From IMG/VR virus record IMGVR_UViG_2541047433_000025: DNA of 13,457 bases; one strand, given 5' to 3'. The notes under the pieces were generated by a model that had not been told where the DNA came from, did no database searches, and saw nothing but the letters and a program-made list of their open reading frames with translations. The stretch's first letter is position 1; each line of letters opens with the position of its first letter. Shown one piece after another: positions 1,553-13,457 of the stretch. Source of the DNA: a virus. Taxonomy: Duplodnaviria; Heunggongvirae; Uroviricota; Caudoviricetes. Made by a program: the position numbers and the translations under genes.

Positions 1553-1741
1553 TCACGAGGACTGAAGTTTCTCGCAATTAAAATTTATCAGTTTTACTTT
1601 CTGCTCTCTGGAAACGCCTGCTTCTTTTTTACCTGAGAGCATTTTTTCGCATTCTGATTTCGTTAGTTTAGATTTTGAATATCTTGTCCAGTTAGTAGGA
1701 GTGCCACCTTCCTTTTCAATAGTGGCGGTAATTTTATACAT
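1553..1741 (-). CDS. ydaC: Small phage protein of unknown function, 62 aa from ATG at 1741 (alternative starts 1753 or 1813)
   Basis: Minus-strand ORF in the track (86 aa to the farthest start). The ATG at 1741 is preceded by GGAGGTG with about 5 nt spacing. Symbol assigned only by recalled Rac gene order between ydaQ and ralR. Confidence 0.5.
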   Translation of the reverse strand: MYKITATIEKEGGTPTNWTRYSKSKLTKSECEKMLSGKKEAGVSREQKVKLINFNCEKLQSS

Positions 1742-2793: not shown

Positions 2794-5386
2794 TTGCATA
2801 TTCCTTAGCCCAGCGGGGCAGTGATAACGTCTTAATAGCTGGCCATTCATCGGTATTGAGGCAGTCAGCCAGGGTTCGCAGATTGCGGTGATATTCCAGC
2901 TGACCTGCCAGTTTTGCTTCTTCGCCCATCATGAAAATTTCAACCGGATAACGTCCGCATTCAATAGTTGTGCTGGCAACCAGAAAAACGAAAGTTGGCT
3001 GCACTCCAAACTGTGCTTCATAACCGTCACTGTAGAATGCATCCTGAACGTGATAGCGGTAGTCGTAATAAGCGGTTTTGAATCGTTGAATATCCGCCGT
3101 AGTTTTCACGTCCATGATCCAGTGAAATTCAGGGATAATTTTGTCCGGACGGCACCGACACAAAATTGCTGTTTCAGGATCTTCCCAGTAAATTGATGAT
3201 TCAGCGTGTCCGGCGCTTTCAACAAGCCATTGCCCCAGCGGCAAAGCCATAACGCTCTGATACATGAGTTCAATTTTCCGGCCTTCTTCGGCAGTGATAA
3301 CCGTTTTTCCTGTGCTTGCGCATTCCCTCAGAAACGCTTTCTCTTCTTCTTTTCCGGAGTTTGTCCGGCGGTTAAATTCAGGTGCTACGATAAAGCGGTT
3401 ACTGAATTCTTCCGGCTCAAGTACCCGGCAGTGGAAAGCGGTTCCTAAATCGAGCGTTTTTGTCTTTGTGGTGTCCACGGGGGCATTTTTACGCCACAAA
3501 TACAGTGCCGGAGTATCAGCAATGTCATCGAGCTGAGACTTACTGACACCGGGACCCGCGTGGTAATTCTCATTCGAAATTCCGTAATAAATACCTGGCT
3601 CTATGTCTTCTACGATTACGGGATCTGCGACTTCGCCAGTTTCATCACTGCAATCGCGATGCGGATCGCTGCCAGCATTCTCATTGTGCGGATGTTCAGC
3701 GCCTTCCATTTCCTCCGGATCATTTTCCTTAGCTTCAACCTGACTCTCTTCATCGAATGTTTCCTGGTATGTTGCGTCGCCCATCACCGCACCACAGTCA
3801 GGGCAGTTATCCCCGCCAGTCTGGCCGCAGGCATTGCAGGCTATTTCCGGTTCCTGTTGCACTACTGGCTCAGGTTGATTCATATCCGGGCTGGTTTTTT
3901 CCGTTTCTGGCTGGTTCTGGTACACACAATCGCGAGTCTGGATCCCCTTTACCCATTTCGGATCGTTCGGGTCGCTAATTCCGTCAACAAATTCACCACG
4001 TGATGCAGCAAGCAATTTATCGGCATCGACAGGATTTTTTGATGGAATGTTTTTCCGGGCTTCATGGAGTTCTGCCCGCAGTTCCTGATATTTCGCATCA
4101 ACAGAATTTACCTGTGACTGAGCATCCAGCGGCTGCGTGTCCTGATGATGTTCAGTTGCGTCCGGTTCCATTGTTTCAGCCTCTCCCTGTTCAACTGCCG
4201 TTGTTCCAGATGGTTGCGGTTTTTCTTCATCATCCTGTTTTCCTTCTTCTGTTACTCGCTGCGGCATCGGGGCAGAGGAGCGACCGCAGGCAATATCCAC
4301 GATTTCCGGATCAGGGTTGGCATGATCGGTTTCAGTCAGTACTTTGTTCAGATATTCAGTGACGTGCGCGGGGATGACCTCGATCCCAATTGGTGCTTCT
4401 TTTACGGACGCAACCACGATGGCGCGGGAATAATCCAGCCCGCCAGGCATGGTGATGAATTTGTCGCGGAAAACAGAAAAGGGCGGTTTATTTTCAGCGA
4501 TAATTTCCTCAATGCGTTTAGCGTGTGCCGGATGAAGGTTATAGATGTCCAGATCCATTGAACGGGCCAGTACGCCAGTGGCTACGTCGCGCGCCAGTGA
4601 CGTCAGATCGTGTACGAAACCTTCGCCGCGATCGGTGAGGTTTCCGCCGCCAGCATTAGCACCGGAAGCCGTGCGAGTGATGTGTGAAACACGATTACCC
4701 TTCATCCACTCTTTTGTCAGCAGTCCTCGATCGGTGTAGTCAGCGTTCAGGTATGCTTCGAAAAAAGCAGTTATCAGTCCCAGGTTTGAATTACCAGGAT
4801 TAGGGAAAACTTTGTCAGTGTCACGAACCAGTTTGTGGAGTTCGCGAATTTCCAGCGGGTCGAGCAGGCTGGTTTTGTGGGAAACAGCCAGGGCAGTAAC
4901 AGCCGGTAGTTCTTCAGCCCGAGCAATGTGTAATGCCTGGAGTCCGTCGCGTGAAACGTGCGTTACCGGTTTTTCGCTGCCGTGTTGAGCAAGCCAACGA
5001 ATGGGCAGTTCCTGGCCAGAAATTGGGAGTAGCATATTCTCCTCAATCTCAGTCATGTCTTCGCCGTTGACGTTGGTATTGCCTTGATAGTGAGCGTTGT
5101 CTGGTGCTGCTCCCGGTTTTAGTTCCCATGTCATGGAGTCTTTGCTGAGTTGATAGCGTTCACTCCAGGTAAAATCGATCTCACCTTCAGCGGGCAGGTC
5201 ATTAACGACAGGAAAATTCGTGGCAACAGCTTTAAAATAGCTGCTCAGTTTTTTACCTGACTTAACGATCAGGTAGTCCAGAGTGGCACAGGTCGATTCA
5301 AAATCGTTGCTTGCCCACAGGACGACGTCAGGTTCACCGGATGATTTTTTCGCTTTCCGTAACAGGAAGAGTGGTTTTGTGCTCAT
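2786..5386 (-). CDS. recE: RecE exonuclease VIII, 866 aa, full length
   Basis: 866-aa minus-strand ORF, the length of full-length RecE. Long acidic low-complexity N-terminal and middle region followed by a C-terminal nuclease region. Position upstream of recT. Confidence 0.93.
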
Positions 5387-5457
5387 TGTTTTTTAACCTC
5401 AACTCAGATTAAAATTCGTTTTGTTCAGTGAATGATCTTGCCGGATACACACTGTTC

Positions 5458-5482
5458 ATAGCCTGCGCCATACGCAGGCTAT
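5458..5482. terminator. Perfect 10-bp stem hairpin ATAGCCTGCG-CCATA-CGCAGGCTAT between racC and recE
   Basis: Stem read directly from the sequence. On the plus strand it is followed by the T-rich TTCTTTCAGATTT; on the minus strand (the coding direction) no U-run follows. Function uncertain. Confidence 0.3.
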
Positions 5483-5487
5483 TTCTT

Positions 5488-5763
5488 TCAGATTTCACCT
5501 TTTAATTTCATTGCAATTAGAGTTGCCAGAAATTCGGCTTTTTTTTCTGTGGGCAGATTCTTTCCGATATGCACCAGGCACATTTTTTTGACACCTTCAT
5601 CAAGTGTTTTTACGTTGCCTGATGGACCATCGATATCAACCACAGTGAATGGGGTTTCTTTATTTTCTGTTTTAATTACGTAGCCAATGCGCTTTCCTTC
5701 CAGATTCACCTCGTGAACAATGTCATCGGTAGTTACAACAGTGGCTTCATAATTGGTAATCAT
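5488..5763 (-). CDS. racC: RacC-like small protein, 91 aa from ATG at 5763 (track ORF extends to 5811)
   Basis: ATG at 5763 is preceded by AAGGAG. Position between recE and ydaE matches Rac synteny. Function unknown. Confidence 0.8.
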   Translation of the reverse strand: MITNYEATVVTTDDIVHEVNLEGKRIGYVIKTENKETPFTVVDIDGPSGNVKTLDEGVKKMCLVHIGKNLPTEKKAEFLATLIAMKLKGEI

Positions 5764-5837
5764 GTTTTTCTCCTTAATTAAGGTTGAGCGAATACCTGCC
5801 ATTTCTGGCATAAATTCAGTTTCGAATAGTCAATTAA

Positions 5838-6008
5838 TTAAAGTTCATGTGCCATCTGGTCTTTTTCGGCACAAGCTTCACTGCAATATTTTCTCGGTTC
5901 GTCTTTTGATAAAATCCCGTGCATGAAGTGAAGCATTCTTTCAATAGCTTTGCTTTCTTCAACGTCTTTTTTGCAAAGGTGGTAAGCACATTTTATTTTC
6001 TTAGTCAT
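5838..6008 (-). CDS. ydaE: YdaE-like small cysteine/histidine-rich protein, 56 aa (not in track)
   Basis: Manual translation: [56 protein letters not shown]. Start ATG overlaps the kilR stop by 1 nt (ATGA). An alternative start 2 codons upstream (MVM...) is possible. Confidence 0.7.
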   Translation of the reverse strand: MTKKIKCAYHLCKKDVEESKAIERMLHFMHGILSKDEPRKYCSEACAEKDQMAHEL

Positions 6009-6229
6009 CACCATGACTCCGCCTTTACAGGTAAACCATCACGACCGAGGAAGACTTTAATCATGCGGTCAGTAATGCATGTTTTTGTGGTCAGGTTACG
6101 AATATATAGTTTTCGCTTTTTAATATTGTTTGCCGAGGCAATATATGTCCGGCCTTCATGAAGAACATAATCGCCAGGAGTCACACACTGACGTGGTATT
6201 TCATCAGTTCCGAAGTGATGTGCAATCAT
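6008..6229 (-). CDS. kilR: KilR-like cell-division inhibitor, 73 aa from ATG at 6229
   Basis: Track ORF is 77 aa; the internal start [14 protein letters not shown]... gives 73 aa. Position in the leftward operon between ydaE and the immunity region matches Rac. Confidence 0.8.
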
Positions 6230-6670
6230 AATTATCTCCATTTTTACAAATGAACTTTGTTGATGCGGTGCCTGGTGCCTCCAGGTGACTGCAACCAGTT
6301 AACAATTACAGTCGGCTTTCCCACCCAAACCAATAAGGACTAACATGACTTTTAACTGTGCCACGTGCGCTTAGCCGCATTCACCGCATCACAAAATTCA
6401 CTTTAAAAAGGGCGGACATCAGCCGAACTTCAAGAAAAAAACTGATGCCGCCAGGACTACACACAGCAATGTCGTTATTTACAACCGGAGGCGCACTCCC
6501 ACCATTTAAATTTAACAGACAAGACCGACTCTTTATGGATATCGGAAATGCGCCTTCGTGTTGTGCCCGGTTTTATTTCACCACCTCCGGGCTTCGGTGG
6601 TCTCGGCTATACCCCTACAGCGAGAGCTTGTGTTAACATTTCAATACCCTTACAGTTGAGAGTTATTGAT

Positions 6671-7159
6671 ATGTTGGATGTATTTACTCCATTGTTGAAA
6701 CTTTTTGCTAACGAGCCACTCGAAAGACTTATGTATACGATTATCATTTTTGGTCTCACTCTCTGGCTGATACCGAAAGAGTTTACTGTCGCATTCAATG
6801 CTTATACTGAAATACCTTGGCTCTTTCAGATTATCGTTTTTGCCTTTTCTTTCGTGGTCGCCATTTCCTTCTCAAGATTGCGAGCACATATTCAAAAGCA
6901 TTATTCATTACTACCAGAGCAACGAGTATTGCTTCGTTTATCTGAGAAAGAAATCGCTGTATTTAAAGATTTCCTTAAAACAGGAAATCTTATTATCACT
7001 TCTCCTTGCCGTAACCCGGTTATGAAAAAATTAGAACGGAAGGGCATCATTCAACATCAGAGTGATAGCGCAAACTGTTCTTATTATCTCGTCACCGAAA
7101 AATACTCCCATTTTATGAAGTTATTCTGGAACAGCAGGAGTAGACGTTTTAATCGTTAG
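6671..7159 (+). CDS. sieB: SieB-like superinfection exclusion protein, 162 aa from ATG at 6671
   Basis: Track ORF is 203 aa from an upstream start; the internal start MLDVFTPLLKLF... gives 162 aa with hydrophobic segments (IIIFGLTLWLIP, LFQIIVFAFSFVVAISF) consistent with a membrane protein. Only plus-strand gene in a leftward block, as in Rac. Confidence 0.8.
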   Translation: MLDVFTPLLKLFANEPLERLMYTIIIFGLTLWLIPKEFTVAFNAYTEIPWLFQIIVFAFSFVVAISFSRLRAHIQKHYSLLPEQRVLLRLSEKEIAVFKDFLKTGNLIITSPCRNPVMKKLERKGIIQHQSDSANCSYYLVTEKYSHFMKLFWNSRSRRFNR

Positions 7160-7311
7160 CTTACTGTGTGCTTCTCCAACCATCGGCGCGCACCAGTTTC
7201 GGTTTTAAATGTTTTGCTTTTGGTATACGTCATGGCAGTGAACGTTCCATCCTGGTTGGGGAACACGCCGCACACCAGGGATTCGTTGTTGCCGAGGTCG
7301 ATTTTTTGCAT
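7156..7311 (-). CDS. ydaF: YdaF-like small protein, 51 aa (not in track)
   Basis: Manual translation: MQKIDLGNNESLVCGVFPNQDGTFTAMTYTKSKTFKTETGARRWLEKHTVS. Its 3' end overlaps the sieB 3' end by 4 nt (convergent). Symbol by synteny and length. Confidence 0.55.
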   Translation of the reverse strand: MQKIDLGNNESLVCGVFPNQDGTFTAMTYTKSKTFKTETGARRWLEKHTVS

Positions 7312-7321
7312 TTTGCGAATC

Positions 7322-7456
7322 TCACATCTTGTTGCTACGTATAGCGACTTCTGCCTGCCAGAGATCCCAGTCGTTGCTGCGTAAAGCCTGCACAGCCTGG
7401 TTGTAAGTGATACCGCAACAATCCATCAAATACTGAACTACTTCGTAATGCACCAT
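7322..7456 (-). CDS. ydaG: YdaG-like small protein, 44 aa (not in track)
   Basis: Manual translation: MVHYEVVQYLMDCCGITYNQAVQALRSNDWDLWQAEVAIRSNKM. Lies between racR and ydaF on the minus strand. Symbol by synteny and length. Confidence 0.55.
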   Translation of the reverse strand: MVHYEVVQYLMDCCGITYNQAVQALRSNDWDLWQAEVAIRSNKM

Positions 7457-7620
7457 CTTATCTATCCCCTTAACGCCGGGTGGCGGAACTAACTGCTGCA
7501 CTGCAAAATTTGAATCCCGCCGTCATGTTCATACGCCTCGGGCTGGCTACTTAACCCCTGACCACTGCCTGGTAACTCGAAGTATTGCCCGGCGTTCTGT
7601 GGGGCGGGGTGGGTTGGTAG

Positions 7621-7680
7621 GTATATAATGTACTTTGTGTTCATCATTGTAAAGTACTTTAAGTACATTTTATGTATAAA
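7621..7680. promoter_or_regulatory. Second operator-like cluster between racR and ydaG
   Basis: AATGTACTTT (7627-7636), perfect palindrome AAAGTACTTT (7651-7660) and AAGTACATTT (7661-7670), the same GTAC-core motif as in the racR-ydaS operator. TATATAAT at 7623-7630 (plus) and TTTACA-N17-CATTAT on the minus strand. Confidence 0.4.
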
Positions 7681-7743
7681 AAAATGAGACGGGATAAAGT
7701 GAAGCACAAACCCGGAGGGGGACGCTACCGGATTTATGCTGGT

Positions 7744-8163
7744 TTAAGAGGCTTTTTGTTTTTTCTTTCGTGCTAACTCTTCGTAAATTGCATTGTACTT
7801 CTGTTTTTTCTCCTCAAGAGTTTTTAAAAGTTCATCTGTCTCACTGTCAGGGAGCTCGTCCAGAAGGTCAATGATGATTTTTTGTCTTGGATTTAACTCC
7901 TGATAGAAACGTATCTGTCCACTTTCTTCTGTATCCTCTCCCAAAAGATAGGTTGGTGTTGTTCCAATGAGTGTTGCTAATTCCCTTAATTTCTCTCGGC
8001 GAGGAATTGTTTCACCATTAAACCATTTGCTAACCGCTTTTGGTGTTAATTTCATTCGACGGGCAATTTCTGCCTGCCTTCCATGTTGTTCATAACCAGC
8101 GTTTTCACAGGCTAGCGCAAGCCTACTGGCGAACTCTTTACGCGCTTTATCTTCATGAACCAT
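7744..8163 (-). CDS. racR: Prophage repressor, XRE-family HTH (RacR-like), 139 aa
   Basis: Helix-turn-helix segment QAEIARRMKLTPKAVSKWFNGETIP. Transcribed divergently from ydaS across a short operator region. An in-frame stop 19 codons upstream prevents any N-terminal extension in this sequence. No SD upstream of the ATG. Confidence 0.85.
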   Translation of the reverse strand: MVHEDKARKEFASRLALACENAGYEQHGRQAEIARRMKLTPKAVSKWFNGETIPRREKLRELATLIGTTPTYLLGEDTEESGQIRFYQELNPRQKIIIDLLDELPDSETDELLKTLEEKKQKYNAIYEELARKKKQKAS

Positions 8164-8242
8164 AAGTTCAATGATATTCGCTCTTGAATGTACTGTCAGT
8201 TCTGTTATAGCATGTACTCAAAGTTCACATTGTGAGGGTGAT
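8164..8242. promoter_or_regulatory. Divergent promoter/operator region between racR and ydaS
   Basis: 79-bp intergenic region with two copies of ATGTACT (8188-8194, 8212-8218) and two of AAGTTCA (8164-8170, 8219-8225). Candidate rightward promoter TTGAAT (8184-8189) / TATAGC (8206-8211). Candidate leftward promoter CTGACA (rc of 8194-8199) / TATCAT (rc of 8171-8176), which would start transcription at or next to the racR ATG. Confidence 0.55.
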
Positions 8243-8497
8243 ATGAACCAGAAAACACTTGAAGATGTAATCAAAACTGTTCGCGTTTCTGTTGTGGCCG
8301 ACGTTTGTGGTGTCAGCCAAAGAGCAATCTACAAATGGATGGATAACGGTAAATTGCCTCGCACAGAATATACCGGCGAAACAAATTACGCTGAAAAAAT
8401 CGCTCATGCATCAAACGGATTATTTTCTGCCGATGCAATTTTAACTATTGGCAGAAATAAAACTACTACGAAAAAGCTGATGGGAGTTGATTCATGA
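8243..8497 (+). CDS. ydaS: YdaS-like small protein, 84 aa from ATG at 8243 (track ORF starts at 8171)
   Basis: ATG at 8243 is preceded by GAGGGTG. The 8171 start would leave no room for a promoter after the racR start. Stop overlaps the ydaT start (ATGA). Confidence 0.7.
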   Translation: MNQKTLEDVIKTVRVSVVADVCGVSQRAIYKWMDNGKLPRTEYTGETNYAEKIAHASNGLFSADAILTIGRNKTTTKKLMGVDS

Positions 8498-8916
8498 AAA
8501 TCAAGCATGAGCACATCGAATCAGTGTTGTTAGCCCTGGCAGCCGAAAAAGGGCAGGCGTGGGTCGCTAACGCAATTACTGAAGAATATCTGCGCCAGGG
8601 GGGCGGCGAATTGCCCCTGGTACCAGGCAAGGACTGGAACAATCAGCAGAATATCTATCATCGTTGGTTGAAAGGTGAAACGAATGCGCAAAGGGAAAAA
8701 ATTCAGAAACTGATCCCTGCGGTTCTGGCAATTCTTCCTCGCGAGCTGCGTCACCGACTCTGCATCTTCGATACCCTGGAACGCCGTGCATTACTGGCGG
8801 CACAGGATGCACTGAGTACGGCAATTGATGCGCATGATGATGCAGTCCAGGCCGTTTACCGTAAAGCACATTTCAGCGGCGGCGGTTCTCCTAGCGATTC
8901 TGTCGTAGTGCATTGA
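8494..8916 (+). CDS. ydaT: YdaT-like protein, 140 aa
   Basis: Track ORF, GGGAG SD, translationally coupled to ydaS. Length and position match Rac ydaT. Confidence 0.8.
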   Translation: MKIKHEHIESVLLALAAEKGQAWVANAITEEYLRQGGGELPLVPGKDWNNQQNIYHRWLKGETNAQREKIQKLIPAVLAILPRELRHRLCIFDTLERRALLAAQDALSTAIDAHDDAVQAVYRKAHFSGGGSPSDSVVVH

Positions 8917-13163: not shown

Positions 13164-13316
13164 AAACGGTTTGCGGGAAAAGGATAGTTAAGTAGAATTG
13201 CTGCGGGTGCTTGAGGCTATCTGCCTCGGGCATGAACACCAACGGCAGATAGAGAAAAGCCCCAGTTAACATTACGCGTCCTGCAAGACGCTTAACATTA
13301 ATCTGAGGCTCAATCC

Positions 13317-13373
13317 ATGCTGAACACATGTAGGTTAGCCTCTTACGTGCCGAAAGGCAAGGAGAAGCAGGCT
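13317..13373 (+). other. Mok-like in-frame upstream start and leader of the hok gene (19-codon N-terminal extension MLNTCRLASYVPKGKEKQA)
   Basis: ATG at 13317 is in frame with the hok ATG at 13374. The MLNTCR... extension resembles the Mok reading frames of chromosomal hok loci as I recall them. Confidence 0.5.
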
Positions 13374-13457
13374 ATGAAGCAGCAAAAGGCGATGTTAATC
13401 GCCCTGATCGTCATCTGTTTAACCGTCATAGTGACGGCACTGGTAACGAGGAAAGAC
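13374..13457 (+). CDS. hok: Hok/Gef-family type I toxin, 5' part only (first 28 codons; truncated by the window end)
   Basis: Manual translation MKQQKAMLIALIVICLTVIVTALVTRKD matches the conserved Hok/Gef N-terminal transmembrane region (closest to HokD/RelF as recalled). AAGGAG SD upstream. Confidence 0.8.
   Translation, partial: MKQQKAMLIALIVICLTVIVTALVTRKD

What the first reader, a model, noticed from the sequence alone, without database searches (positions are those of the whole stretch)
7621..8242. Same ATGTACT motif on both sides of racR: a lambda-like two-operator layout
The racR-ydaS intergenic region has two ATGTACT copies (8188-8194, 8212-8218). A second cluster about 500 bp away, beyond the racR 3' end, has three GTAC-core copies including the perfect palindrome AAAGTACTTT (7627-7636, 7651-7660, 7661-7670). 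A repressor gene flanked by two operator clusters is the lambda cI/OL/OR architecture. It would let RacR control both ydaS-ydaT (reported to be toxic when derepressed, as I recall) and the leftward ydaG-ydaF region.
Basis: partly seen in the sequence, partly recalled or inferred. Interest (0 to 1): 0.55.

Follow-up and report, generated by a model that had tools for sequence, protein, structure and literature searches.

The report
HK022-type operators flank a prophage repressor
The repeated ATGTACT words are real and belong to five 15-bp operator sites of the well-studied phage HK022 type, placed on both sides of a short repressor gene in a Rac-type E. coli prophage, so this is an ordinary lambda-like switch and the repressor is not K-12 RacR.

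Summary
ATGTACT occurs 4 times in 13.5 kb, always in the two clusters. The true unit is a 15-bp inverted repeat, TGWAC-N5-GTWCA.

There are five sites:
- OL1 7629-7643
- OL2 7653-7667
- OR2 8189-8203
- OR1 8213-8227

A weight matrix built only from the annotated phage HK022 operators ranks these five as the top five hits in the window. Their spacing (24 bp in OL; 24 and 33 bp in OR) equals HK022's. The half-sites do not vary across 7 variants of the module (0 of 50 positions), whereas 46 of 181 other non-coding positions vary.

The "racR" here is not RacR. Its N-terminal domain is 46% identical to HK022 CI, and the "ydaS" is 62% identical to HK022 Cro. Compared with K-12 Rac, exactly 7620-8487 (OL, repressor, OR, cro) has been replaced. 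K-12's own cassette carries the RacR motif at both ends.

The two-operator, lambda-like reading is therefore supported, but it is a known kind. The only unusual feature is that the 139-aa repressor lacks the S24 self-cleavage domain, which has already been noted for O157 prophage Sp10.

The parts
7620..8487 (.). Swapped immunity cassette: OL/PL, repressor gene, OR with its divergent promoters, and cro
   Evidence: blastn of the window against K-12 Rac gives 99.8% identity over 5000-7619, nothing over 7620-8487, and 92.5% over 8488-8914. The same cassette sits in a Qin/dicB-type backbone in phage Tritos.
7629..7643 (.). OL1 operator, TGTACTTTGTGTTCA; lies in the spacer of the leftward promoter and overlaps its -10 by 2 nt
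   Evidence: 0 mismatches to TGWAC-N5-GTWCA. Scores 12.3 bits with the HK022-only matrix, within the top 5. Half-sites invariant and spacer variable across 7 variants. Positional equivalent of the annotated HK022 oL site.
7653..7667 (.). OL2 operator, AGTACTTTAAGTACA; just upstream of the -35, 24 bp from OL1
   Evidence: 16.6 bits. Half-sites invariant. HK022 oL spacing is also 24 bp.
7625..7653 (-). PL-like leftward promoter, -35 TTTACA (7653-7648), 17-nt spacer, -10 CATTAT (7630-7625)
   Evidence: Consensus scan, 9 of 12 matches. Same position as the annotated HK022 pL hexamers to within 1-2 nt. Activity is inferred, not shown.
7744..8163 (-). Repressor gene, 139 aa: HK022-CI-like HTH domain (aa 1 to about 75), a flexible linker, and a C-terminal helix-turn-long-helix domain; no S24 peptidase domain
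   Evidence: 46% identity to HK022 CI over 99 aa, E 9e-32. Pfam finds only HTH_3 and other helix-turn-helix families. Alignment with long and short relatives. AlphaFold model with helices 92-103 and 106-138 and a linker at 77-88 of low confidence.
8156..8170 (.). OR3 operator, TGAACCATAAGTTCA; overlaps the repressor start codon (8161-8163) and the predicted transcription start of the repressor promoter
   Evidence: Perfect match and the best hit with the matrix, 19.7 bits. Identical in sequence to HK022 oR3 and oR1, and in the same register over the cI ATG.
8171..8199 (-). PRM-like repressor promoter, -35 CTGACA (8199-8194), 17-nt spacer, -10 TATCAT (8176-8171); predicted to give a leaderless mRNA
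   Evidence: Consensus scan, 10 of 12 matches. The -10 ends 7 nt before the ATG. HK022 has the same geometry (CTGATA...TATAGT, then 7 nt, then ATG), read. Inferred.
8189..8203 (.). OR2 operator, TGTACTGTCAGTTCT; lies in the PR spacer and overlaps the PRM-like -35
   Evidence: 14.0 bits. HK022 oR2 is TGTACTATCAGTTCC at the equivalent place. It is 33 bp from OR3 and 24 bp from OR1, as in HK022.
8185..8212 (+). PR-like rightward promoter, -35 TTGAAT (8185-8190), 16-nt spacer, TGt-TATAGC extended -10 (8207-8212)
   Evidence: Read directly from the sequence. Positionally equal to the annotated HK022 pR, TTGACT...CATAAT. It was not picked up by the consensus scan because the -10 ends in C.
8213..8227 (.). 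OR1 operator, TGTACTCAAAGTTCA; immediately downstream of the PR -10, covering the start site
   Evidence: 16.6 bits. Half-sites invariant.
8243..8497 (+). cro-like gene (84 aa), annotated HTH regulator; not ydaS
   Evidence: 62% identity to HK022 Cro over 73 aa, E 1e-34. No meaningful similarity to K-12 YdaS.
8494..8916 (+). ydaT (CII analogue); lies outside the swapped cassette
   Evidence: 94% identical to K-12 YdaT. Matches Pfam YdaT_toxin. A perfect YdaT box, TTGATTCATGAAAATCAA, lies at 8487-8504.

Best explanation
The region 7620-8487 is an HK022-type immunity cassette inside a Rac-type, Sp10-like lambdoid prophage.

The 139-aa repressor recognises 15-bp operators, TGWAC-N5-GTWCA, through an HTH domain of the HK022 CI type.

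On the left, OL1 and OL2 are 24 bp apart. They sit in the spacer of a leftward promoter and just upstream of its -35. That promoter would drive the ydaG-like gene, ydaF, kilR, ydaE, racC, recE, recT, xis and int.

On the right, OR1 and OR2 are 24 bp apart and bracket the rightward promoter of cro-ydaT. OR3 lies 33 bp further on. It covers the start of a probably leaderless repressor mRNA and allows negative autoregulation.

Occupied operators would shut both early operons, maintain lysogeny and give immunity. Cro (62% identical to HK022 Cro) presumably competes for the same sites.

Shown here: the sites, their statistics, their conservation, their identity with the HK022 operator layout, and the cassette boundaries.

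Inferred: actual binding, promoter activity, cooperativity, and any OL-OR looping.
For: - Site statistics: the pattern with up to 1 mismatch gives 6 matches against 1.36 expected, and 5 of the 6 are in the two clusters.
- Independent matrix: a matrix trained only on the 5 annotated HK022 operators gives the five sites as the top 5 of 13,443 positions (19.7 to 12.3 bits, next best 9.9). Simulated sequences average 0.22 hits at that threshold, with a maximum of 3 in 300 simulations.
- Spacing and register are identical to HK022: 24 and 33 bp in OR, 24 bp in OL, and OR3 over the ATG.
- Protein homology: the repressor N-terminal domain is 46% identical to HK022 CI, with the recognition helix TPKA(V/I)SKWFNGE conserved. 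Cro is 62% identical.
- Conservation: across 7 variants, 0 of 50 half-site columns vary, against 6 of 25 spacer columns and 40 of 156 other non-coding columns; Fisher p = 4e-6.
- Relatives: four further loci have the same layout. They are a Salmonella prophage with a short repressor, a Raoultella prophage with a repressor carrying the S24 domain, a Klebsiella phage whose cI reading frame is annotated in two pieces, and phage HK75.
- Co-variation: the cassette swap against K-12 begins exactly at OL and ends at the cro stop. K-12's cassette carries RacR's own motif in two clusters, with 6 hits all clustered against 1.48 expected.
- Promoter-like hexamers lie at the expected places.
- Literature: HK022 CI binds adjacent OL and OR operators cooperatively and loops OL to OR (PMC8053113, citing Carlson & Little 1993). 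A PL/OL pair was shown experimentally for the related prophage CP-933P (PMC8630535).
Against: - No binding or expression data exist for this protein.
- The repressor lacks the C-terminal domain that mediates dimerisation and cooperativity in HK022 CI, so cooperative or looped binding cannot simply be carried over.
- OL3 and the far-right operator OFR of HK022 have no counterpart here.
- The PR -10 (TATAGC) is weak and was not called by the scan.
- OR2 overlaps the -35 of the putative repressor promoter, so the sign of autoregulation at low occupancy is unknown.
- The 7 variants used for the footprint are related sequences, so the p-value overstates their independence.
Confidence: 0.88

Rival explanations
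1. K-12-type RacR binds a 7-10 bp ATGTACT / AAAGTACTTT word at two sites on the right and three on the left.
For: The words are present and enriched. The genes occupy the positions of racR and ydaS in Rac.
Against: - The protein is unrelated to RacR outside the HTH.
- RacR's footprinted motif is WTAGGC-N3-GCCTAW (PMC9638921), which is absent from the clusters.
- Half-sites without GTAC (GTTCA, TGAAC) are just as invariant as those with it.
- OR3, the highest-scoring site with the HK022-only matrix, has no GTAC at all.
- A 15-bp dyad fits an HTH dimer and the HK022 annotation.
Confidence: 0.03
2. The sites are mainly targets of the Cro-like protein, or of YdaT, rather than of the repressor.
For: In lambdoid phages Cro shares the CI operators. 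Cro here is 62% identical to HK022 Cro. YdaT homologues bind the immunity region in K-12 and CP-933P (PMC11879457, PMC9986795).
Against: - Shared use by Cro is part of the main model, not an alternative to it.
- The YdaT recognition sequence is TTGATT-N6-AATCAA (PMC9986795). Its only perfect copy is at 8487-8504, not in the clusters.
- The operator sequence tracks the repressor's recognition helix across relatives whose neighbouring genes differ.
Confidence: 0.05
3. The repeats are chance, or promoter-related AT-rich sequence, or a fossil of a dead switch with no present function.
For: Both clusters lie in AT-rich intergenic DNA (GC 0.42 and 0.37). The prophage is defective, with an IS91 in the tape-measure gene.
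Against: - The statistics argue against chance.
- Half-sites are invariant across variants of the module that are 87-100% identical in DNA, while the spacers and linkers between them vary.
- The repressor reading frame is intact at 139 aa in every variant, and the module is present in 1047 of 5426 complete E. coli genomes.
- Inducible phages carry the identical module.
- Sp10, the O157 Sakai prophage at the Rac attachment site, can be transferred to K-12 and lysogenises it (PMC2669165).
Confidence: 0.04

Closest known systems
Phage HK022 immunity region (cI, cro, OL, OR; GenBank X16093, and HK75 HM173637)
   Same: - 15-bp operators with the same half-sites (TGWAC / GTWCA); OR3 is identical in sequence.
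- Three OR sites spaced 24 and 33 bp, with OR3 over the cI ATG.
- Two adjacent OL sites 24 bp apart, around PL.
- Homologous repressor DNA-binding domain (46%) and Cro (62%).
- Promoter hexamers in the same places.
   Different: - The repressor is 139 aa with a short helical C-terminal domain, where HK022 CI has an S24 / LexA-like domain.
- There is no OL3 (53 bp away in HK022-type phages) and no OFR.
- There is no DNA similarity to nun or putL. The PL leader and the downstream genes are Rac-type.
- CII is replaced by YdaT.
K-12 Rac prophage RacR / YdaS / YdaT switch
   Same: - Same prophage backbone and integration site next to ttcA: 99.8% identity to the left of the cassette and about 92% to the right.
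- Same logic. RacR operators lie over the ydaS and racR promoters, including one over the racR ATG (PMC9638921). Two further copies of the RacR motif surround a leftward TTGACA-17-TATAGT promoter downstream of racR.
   Different: - Unrelated repressor and Cro proteins.
- A different operator: WTAGGC-N3-GCCTAW against TGWAC-N5-GTWCA.
CP-933P (O157:H7) PaaR2 / YdaS / YdaT switch with PL933P and OL1-3
   Same: It is a Rac-like cryptic prophage in which OR-type sites, a separate PL promoter and OL operators on the far side of the repressor operon were identified and tested with reporters. The repressor mRNA is leaderless (PMC8630535).
   Different: - A different repressor (PaaR2) and different 18-bp palindromes (half-site GTTTAGTAA).
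- A toxin-antitoxin pair lies between the repressor gene and OL. Here the repressor gene is followed directly by OL.
Short, non-cleavable prophage repressors (Gifsy GfoR/GftR type; O157 Sakai Sp4, Sp6, Sp9 and Sp10 repressors)
   Same: The repressor is about 136-139 aa, with an HTH domain plus a short C-terminal domain and no peptidase domain. This was noted for Sp10, the Sakai prophage at the Rac attachment site (PMC2669165). Gifsy repressors of this size are inactivated by antirepressors (PMC3121763).
   Different: No sequence-level link between this C-terminal domain and the Gifsy, DicA or RacR proteins was established here. The RacR comparison matched only the HTH. No LexA-controlled antirepressor was identified.

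Membership tests
HK022-type lambdoid immunity region | Repressor with an HK022-CI-like HTH DNA-binding domain and recognition helix | tested here: met
   46 of 99 residues identical, E 9e-32. TPKAVSKWFNGE is invariant across relatives.
HK022-type lambdoid immunity region | 15-bp dyad operators, TGWAC-N5-GTWCA | tested here: met
   The matrix trained only on HK022 operators returns the five sites as the top five hits. Pattern statistics agree.
HK022-type lambdoid immunity region | Tripartite OR spaced 24 and 33 bp, with OR3 over the repressor start codon; OL pair spaced 24 bp around PL | tested here: met
   Window sites start at 8213, 8189 and 8156, and at 7629 and 7653. HK022 sites start at 430, 454 and 487, and at 1262 and 1286. 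The same holds in 4 further relatives.
HK022-type lambdoid immunity region | HK022-like Cro transcribed divergently | tested here: met
   62% identity over 73 aa.
HK022-type lambdoid immunity region | Repressor C-terminal S24 / LexA-like domain (RecA-stimulated self-cleavage, cooperativity) | tested here: not met
   Pfam finds only helix-turn-helix families. The alignment shows the S24 domain only in the long relatives. The model shows two C-terminal helices.
HK022-type lambdoid immunity region | Accessory operators OL3 and OFR; putL and nun downstream of PL | tested here: not met
   No site of 10 bits or more at the expected positions. blastn against HK022 matches only OL and the stretch from the cI N-terminal region to cro. 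There is no Rfam hit in the leader.
HK022-type lambdoid immunity region | Repressor actually binds the operators and confers HK022-type immunity | not testable with these tools
   This needs EMSA or footprinting, and phage plating.
K-12 RacR regulon | Repressor orthologous to RacR (158 aa) | tested here: not met
   Only 12 of 33 residues identical, in the HTH.
K-12 RacR regulon | Operators WTAGGC-N3-GCCTAW | tested here: not met
   One weak match with 2 mismatches, inside the coding sequence, against 3.4 expected.
Lambda-like two-operator switch (repressor gene between OL/PL and OR/PR-PRM) | The same operator type on both sides of the repressor gene, each overlapping an outward early promoter | tested here: met
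   The promoters are consensus matches only.
Lambda-like two-operator switch (repressor gene between OL/PL and OR/PR-PRM) | Long-range OL-OR cooperation (looping) by repressor oligomers | not testable with these tools
   Shown for HK022 CI (PMC8053113), but through a C-terminal domain that is absent here.
Antirepressor-controlled short repressors (Gifsy type) | Short repressor without a cleavage domain | tested here: met
   139 aa and no S24 domain. The same was noted for Sp10 (PMC2669165).
Antirepressor-controlled short repressors (Gifsy type) | Cognate, LexA-controlled antirepressor | tested here: inconclusive
   A KilAC-domain antirepressor gene exists in the same prophage (L015 11067-11756). 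No LexA-box-like sequence lies upstream of it. Its target is unknown.

The most novel reading that the evidence does not exclude
The HK022-specificity DNA-binding domain has been joined to a short helix-turn-long-helix C-terminal domain in place of the RecA-sensitive S24 domain.

This short form occurs in about 19% of complete E. coli genomes and in Salmonella. It keeps the exact 24 and 33 bp operator geometry that, in HK022, serves cooperativity mediated by the S24-type domain.

If the new domain restores pairwise cooperativity or OL-OR looping and is the target of an antirepressor, these prophages would form a widespread immunity group. That group would share HK022 specificity but would not be induced directly by the SOS response. 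It would also offer a natural domain-swap experiment on how operator spacing constrains repressor evolution.
Probability: 0.3. Interest if true: 0.4.

Novelty: new member of a known kind. Interest (0 to 1): 0.25.

Why it matters
- Annotation: in about a fifth of complete E. coli genomes, including O157, O111 and APEC strains, the gene at the racR position of Rac-type or Qin-type prophages is an HK022-type repressor with predictable operators. RacR literature, including the RacR motif and the cross-talk with C proteins, should not be transferred to these strains.
- Ready targets: the work gives exact operator and promoter coordinates for anyone studying control of kilR, recET or ydaT in STEC prophages.
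- Immunity: it predicts cross-immunity with HK022-immunity phages.
- By-product: K-12 Rac itself appears to have an OL. Two copies of the RacR motif surround a near-consensus leftward promoter. This fits the reported RacR octamers and the derepression of the leftward genes when racR is silenced.

None of this changes the concept, because the architecture is the textbook lambdoid one.

Tried and rejected
- The core WGTACW alone is not enriched: 10 matches against 7.75 expected. GTAC is therefore not the unit.
- A third OL operator was sought. 7674-7688 (TGTATAAAAAAATGA) resembles the site annotated as oL3 in HK75 only in its left half. Nothing scores at the 53-bp position where the long-form relatives have OL3. 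It was dropped.
- An OFR-like site downstream of cro was sought and not found.
- A put- or nut-like RNA in the conserved PL leader (7618->7500) was sought. There is no Rfam hit at gathering thresholds, the fold energy is no better than shuffles (z = -0.17), and there is no similarity to HK022 putL.
- The intrinsic-terminator scan between the repressor stop and OL found nothing.
- The structure search with the repressor model returned only generic HTH_XRE folds, with no match at E <= 0.001. It gave no information on the C-terminal domain. The PDB sequence search found only the P22 C2 N-terminal domain, weakly.
- A LexA box upstream of the prophage's KilAC antirepressor gene was sought and not found.
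- Literature searches found no paper describing this particular cassette or a K-12 Rac OL. Coverage is limited to open-access papers, and Carlson & Little 1993 could only be cited second-hand, through PMC8053113.

Full report
**What the window is.** The window is 100% identical to a prophage next to ttcA in STEC strain E2863. The gene order is intR, xisR, ralR, recT, recE, racC-like, ydaE, kilR, sieB, ydaF, a ydaG-like gene, an HTH repressor (7744-8163, minus strand, 139 aa), an HTH regulator (8243-8497, plus strand), ydaT, then replication genes. The prophage continues for about 40 kb through lysis, head and tail genes, and an IS91 interrupts the tape-measure gene. It is a Rac-type lambdoid prophage of the kind called Sp10 in O157 Sakai (PMC2669165).

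**Checking the observation.**
- ATGTACT occurs four times on both strands of the 13,457-bp window, always inside the two clusters. The expectation is 0.89, and 2 of 200 shuffles reach 4.
- It does not occur elsewhere in the 17.2-kb locus. In the remaining 49 kb of the prophage there are five scattered copies.
- The bare core WGTACW is not enriched.

**The real unit.** Repeat analysis extended the copies to 16-22 nt, and the extensions line up as TGWAC-N5-GTWCA. With at most one mismatch this pattern has six matches against 1.36 expected, and no shuffle reaches six. Five of the six are:

| Site | Coordinates | Sequence |
|---|---|---|
| OL1 | 7629-7643 | TGTACTTTGTGTTCA |
| OL2 | 7653-7667 | AGTACTTTAAGTACA |
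| OR3 | 8156-8170 | TGAACCATAAGTTCA |
| OR2 | 8189-8203 | TGTACTGTCAGTTCT |
| OR1 | 8213-8227 | TGTACTCAAAGTTCA |

The sixth match lies inside recE and is probably chance. It follows that the left cluster holds two operators, not three. Each right-hand ATGTACT is half of an operator. A third right-hand operator, over the repressor's ATG, was missed because it contains no GTAC.

**Identity of the system.**
- The repressor shares only its HTH with K-12 RacR, 12 of 33 residues.
- A translated search of phage genomes found identical repressors in phage Tritos and in three vB_EcoS phages. It also found the N-terminal domain in HK022 CI. Direct comparison gives 46% identity over 99 residues, E 9e-32. 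The divergent gene is 62% identical to HK022 Cro and unrelated to YdaS.
- The HK022 GenBank records annotate 15-bp operators: three in OR, starting at 430, 454 and 487, with the last over the cI ATG, and two in OL, starting at 1262 and 1286. The spacings of 24, 33 and 24 bp are exactly those in the window.
- The sequences are of the same type, and oR3 is identical.
- A weight matrix built only from the five HK022 sites ranks the five window sites first to fifth (19.7, 16.6, 16.6, 14.0 and 12.3 bits; next best 9.9). First-order Markov simulations give 0.22 hits per sequence at that threshold, and never more than 3 in 300 simulations.

**Conservation and co-variation.** The module (7600-8245) is present in 1047 of 5426 complete E. 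coli genomes.
- I compared seven variants, 87-100% identical in DNA and sitting in Rac-type and Qin/dicB-type backbones. None of the 50 half-site columns varies. Six of 25 spacer columns and 40 of 156 other non-coding columns do vary; Fisher p = 4e-6, with the caveat that the sequences are related.
- Four more distant loci have the same OR triplet (24 and 33 bp) and OL pair (24 bp): a Salmonella prophage with a 138-aa short repressor, a Raoultella prophage with a 240-aa repressor carrying the S24 domain, a Klebsiella phage, and HK75. The last three also have an OL3 53 bp away.
- Against K-12 Rac, the window is 99.8% identical up to 7619 and 92.5% identical from 8488, with no similarity between. 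The replaced block is therefore exactly OL, repressor, OR and cro, which is a classical immunity cassette.
- K-12's block carries the published RacR motif (PMC9638921) in two clusters of its own. The operators change together with the repressor on both sides of the gene.

**Mechanism.**
- Consensus scans find a leftward promoter, TTTACA-17-CATTAT (7653->7625). OL1 lies in its spacer and OL2 abuts its -35. The scans also find a leftward repressor promoter, CTGACA-17-TATCAT (8199->8171), whose -10 ends 7 nt before the ATG. This implies a leaderless mRNA, as reported for lambda cI and for PaaR2 (PMC8630535).
- The rightward promoter, TTGAAT-16-TGtTATAGC (8185-8212), is my own reading. It matches the position of the annotated HK022 pR.
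- The repressor would block PL (the ydaG-like gene through int) and PR (cro, ydaT and the replication genes). At OR3 it would block its own synthesis.
- In K-12, silencing racR derepresses both arms of the prophage (bioRxiv 10.64898/2026.09.06.749655; PMC11014345). This is the behaviour expected of such a layout.
- Binding, promoter activity, cooperativity and looping are all inferred.

**The one non-standard feature.** The repressor has no S24 peptidase domain. The model shows an HTH domain, a low-confidence linker (residues 77-88), and helices 92-103 and 106-138. Structure and sequence searches gave nothing specific for this tail. The absence of a peptidase domain in the Sp10 repressor has already been noted (PMC2669165). 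Short Gifsy repressors are controlled by antirepressors (PMC3121763). A KilAC antirepressor gene lies in the same prophage, but it has no LexA box upstream. How this repressor dimerises, cooperates or is inactivated remains open.

**Verdict.** The lambda-like interpretation is right in architecture and wrong in the names of the players. This is a new member, with a domain-swapped repressor, of a thoroughly characterised operator system. Interest is low to moderate.

Noticed in passing
L002 2627-2668 (NC_000913.3 1,419,626-1,419,667): K-12 Rac has two copies of the published RacR motif, TAGGTAATGCCTA and TAGGCTATGCCTA, 25 bp apart. They lie downstream of racR, around a near-consensus leftward promoter, TTGACA-17-TATAGT. 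One copy is in the spacer and the other just upstream of the -35, which is the geometry of an OL/PL. The RacR papers I read describe only the sites in the racR-ydaS intergenic region.
   Followed up: yes
window 7505-7618 (minus strand): A leader of about 110 nt immediately downstream of the PL-like promoter is nearly invariant in K-12 Rac, phage Tritos and several E. coli prophages, even though the immunity cassette upstream and the first gene downstream both differ. Its 5' end is very C-rich. It has no Rfam hit and no unusual fold (z = -0.17). An overlapping ORF (7489-7707, minus strand) matches phrog_19140. Its function is unknown; a Rho-loading or antitermination site is only a guess.
   Followed up: partly
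window 8487-8504: A perfect YdaT box, TTGATTCATGAAAATCAA, sits exactly on the right junction of the swapped cassette, at the cro stop and ydaT start. Any YdaT-activated, PRE-like promoter reading back towards the repressor would therefore lie inside the foreign cro gene.
   Followed up: partly
L015 9059-9073 (NZ_AP018802.1 1,671,058-1,671,072): An isolated strong HK022-type site, TGAACTGTAAGTTCC (16.4 bits), lies inside the SASA-family esterase gene about 570 bp upstream of the holin gene. It may be chance, or a distant accessory operator.
   Followed up: no
L013 3053-3720; L014 3308-4750: In relatives, extra genes sit between the repressor gene and OL, in the position rexAB holds in lambda. 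The Salmonella prophage has a HigB/HigA-like pair there, and the Raoultella prophage has a 480-aa AAA/SMC-like protein. In the window the repressor gene is followed directly by OL.
   Followed up: no
window 1557-1735 (+) and 13205-13379 (+): Rfam matches to the RalA antitoxin sRNA (opposite ralR) and to a sok antitoxin RNA near the right end of the window.
   Followed up: no
L015 11067-11756: The same prophage has a KilAC-domain antirepressor gene in its lysis region. No LexA-box-like sequence lies upstream of it. Whether it acts on the short repressor is unknown.
   Followed up: partly
NZ_CM135829.1 827,052-827,697: A record labelled E. coli DH5alpha carries this immunity module at 100% identity. 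That is unexpected for a K-12 derivative, whose Rac prophage has RacR.
   Followed up: no
L005 4001-4711: In Klebsiella phage ST15-VIM1phi2.1 the HK022-like repressor N-terminal domain (4001-4300) is not annotated, and a separate ORF (4325-4711) is called CI. The gene may be split, or the annotation or sequence may be at fault.
   Followed up: no
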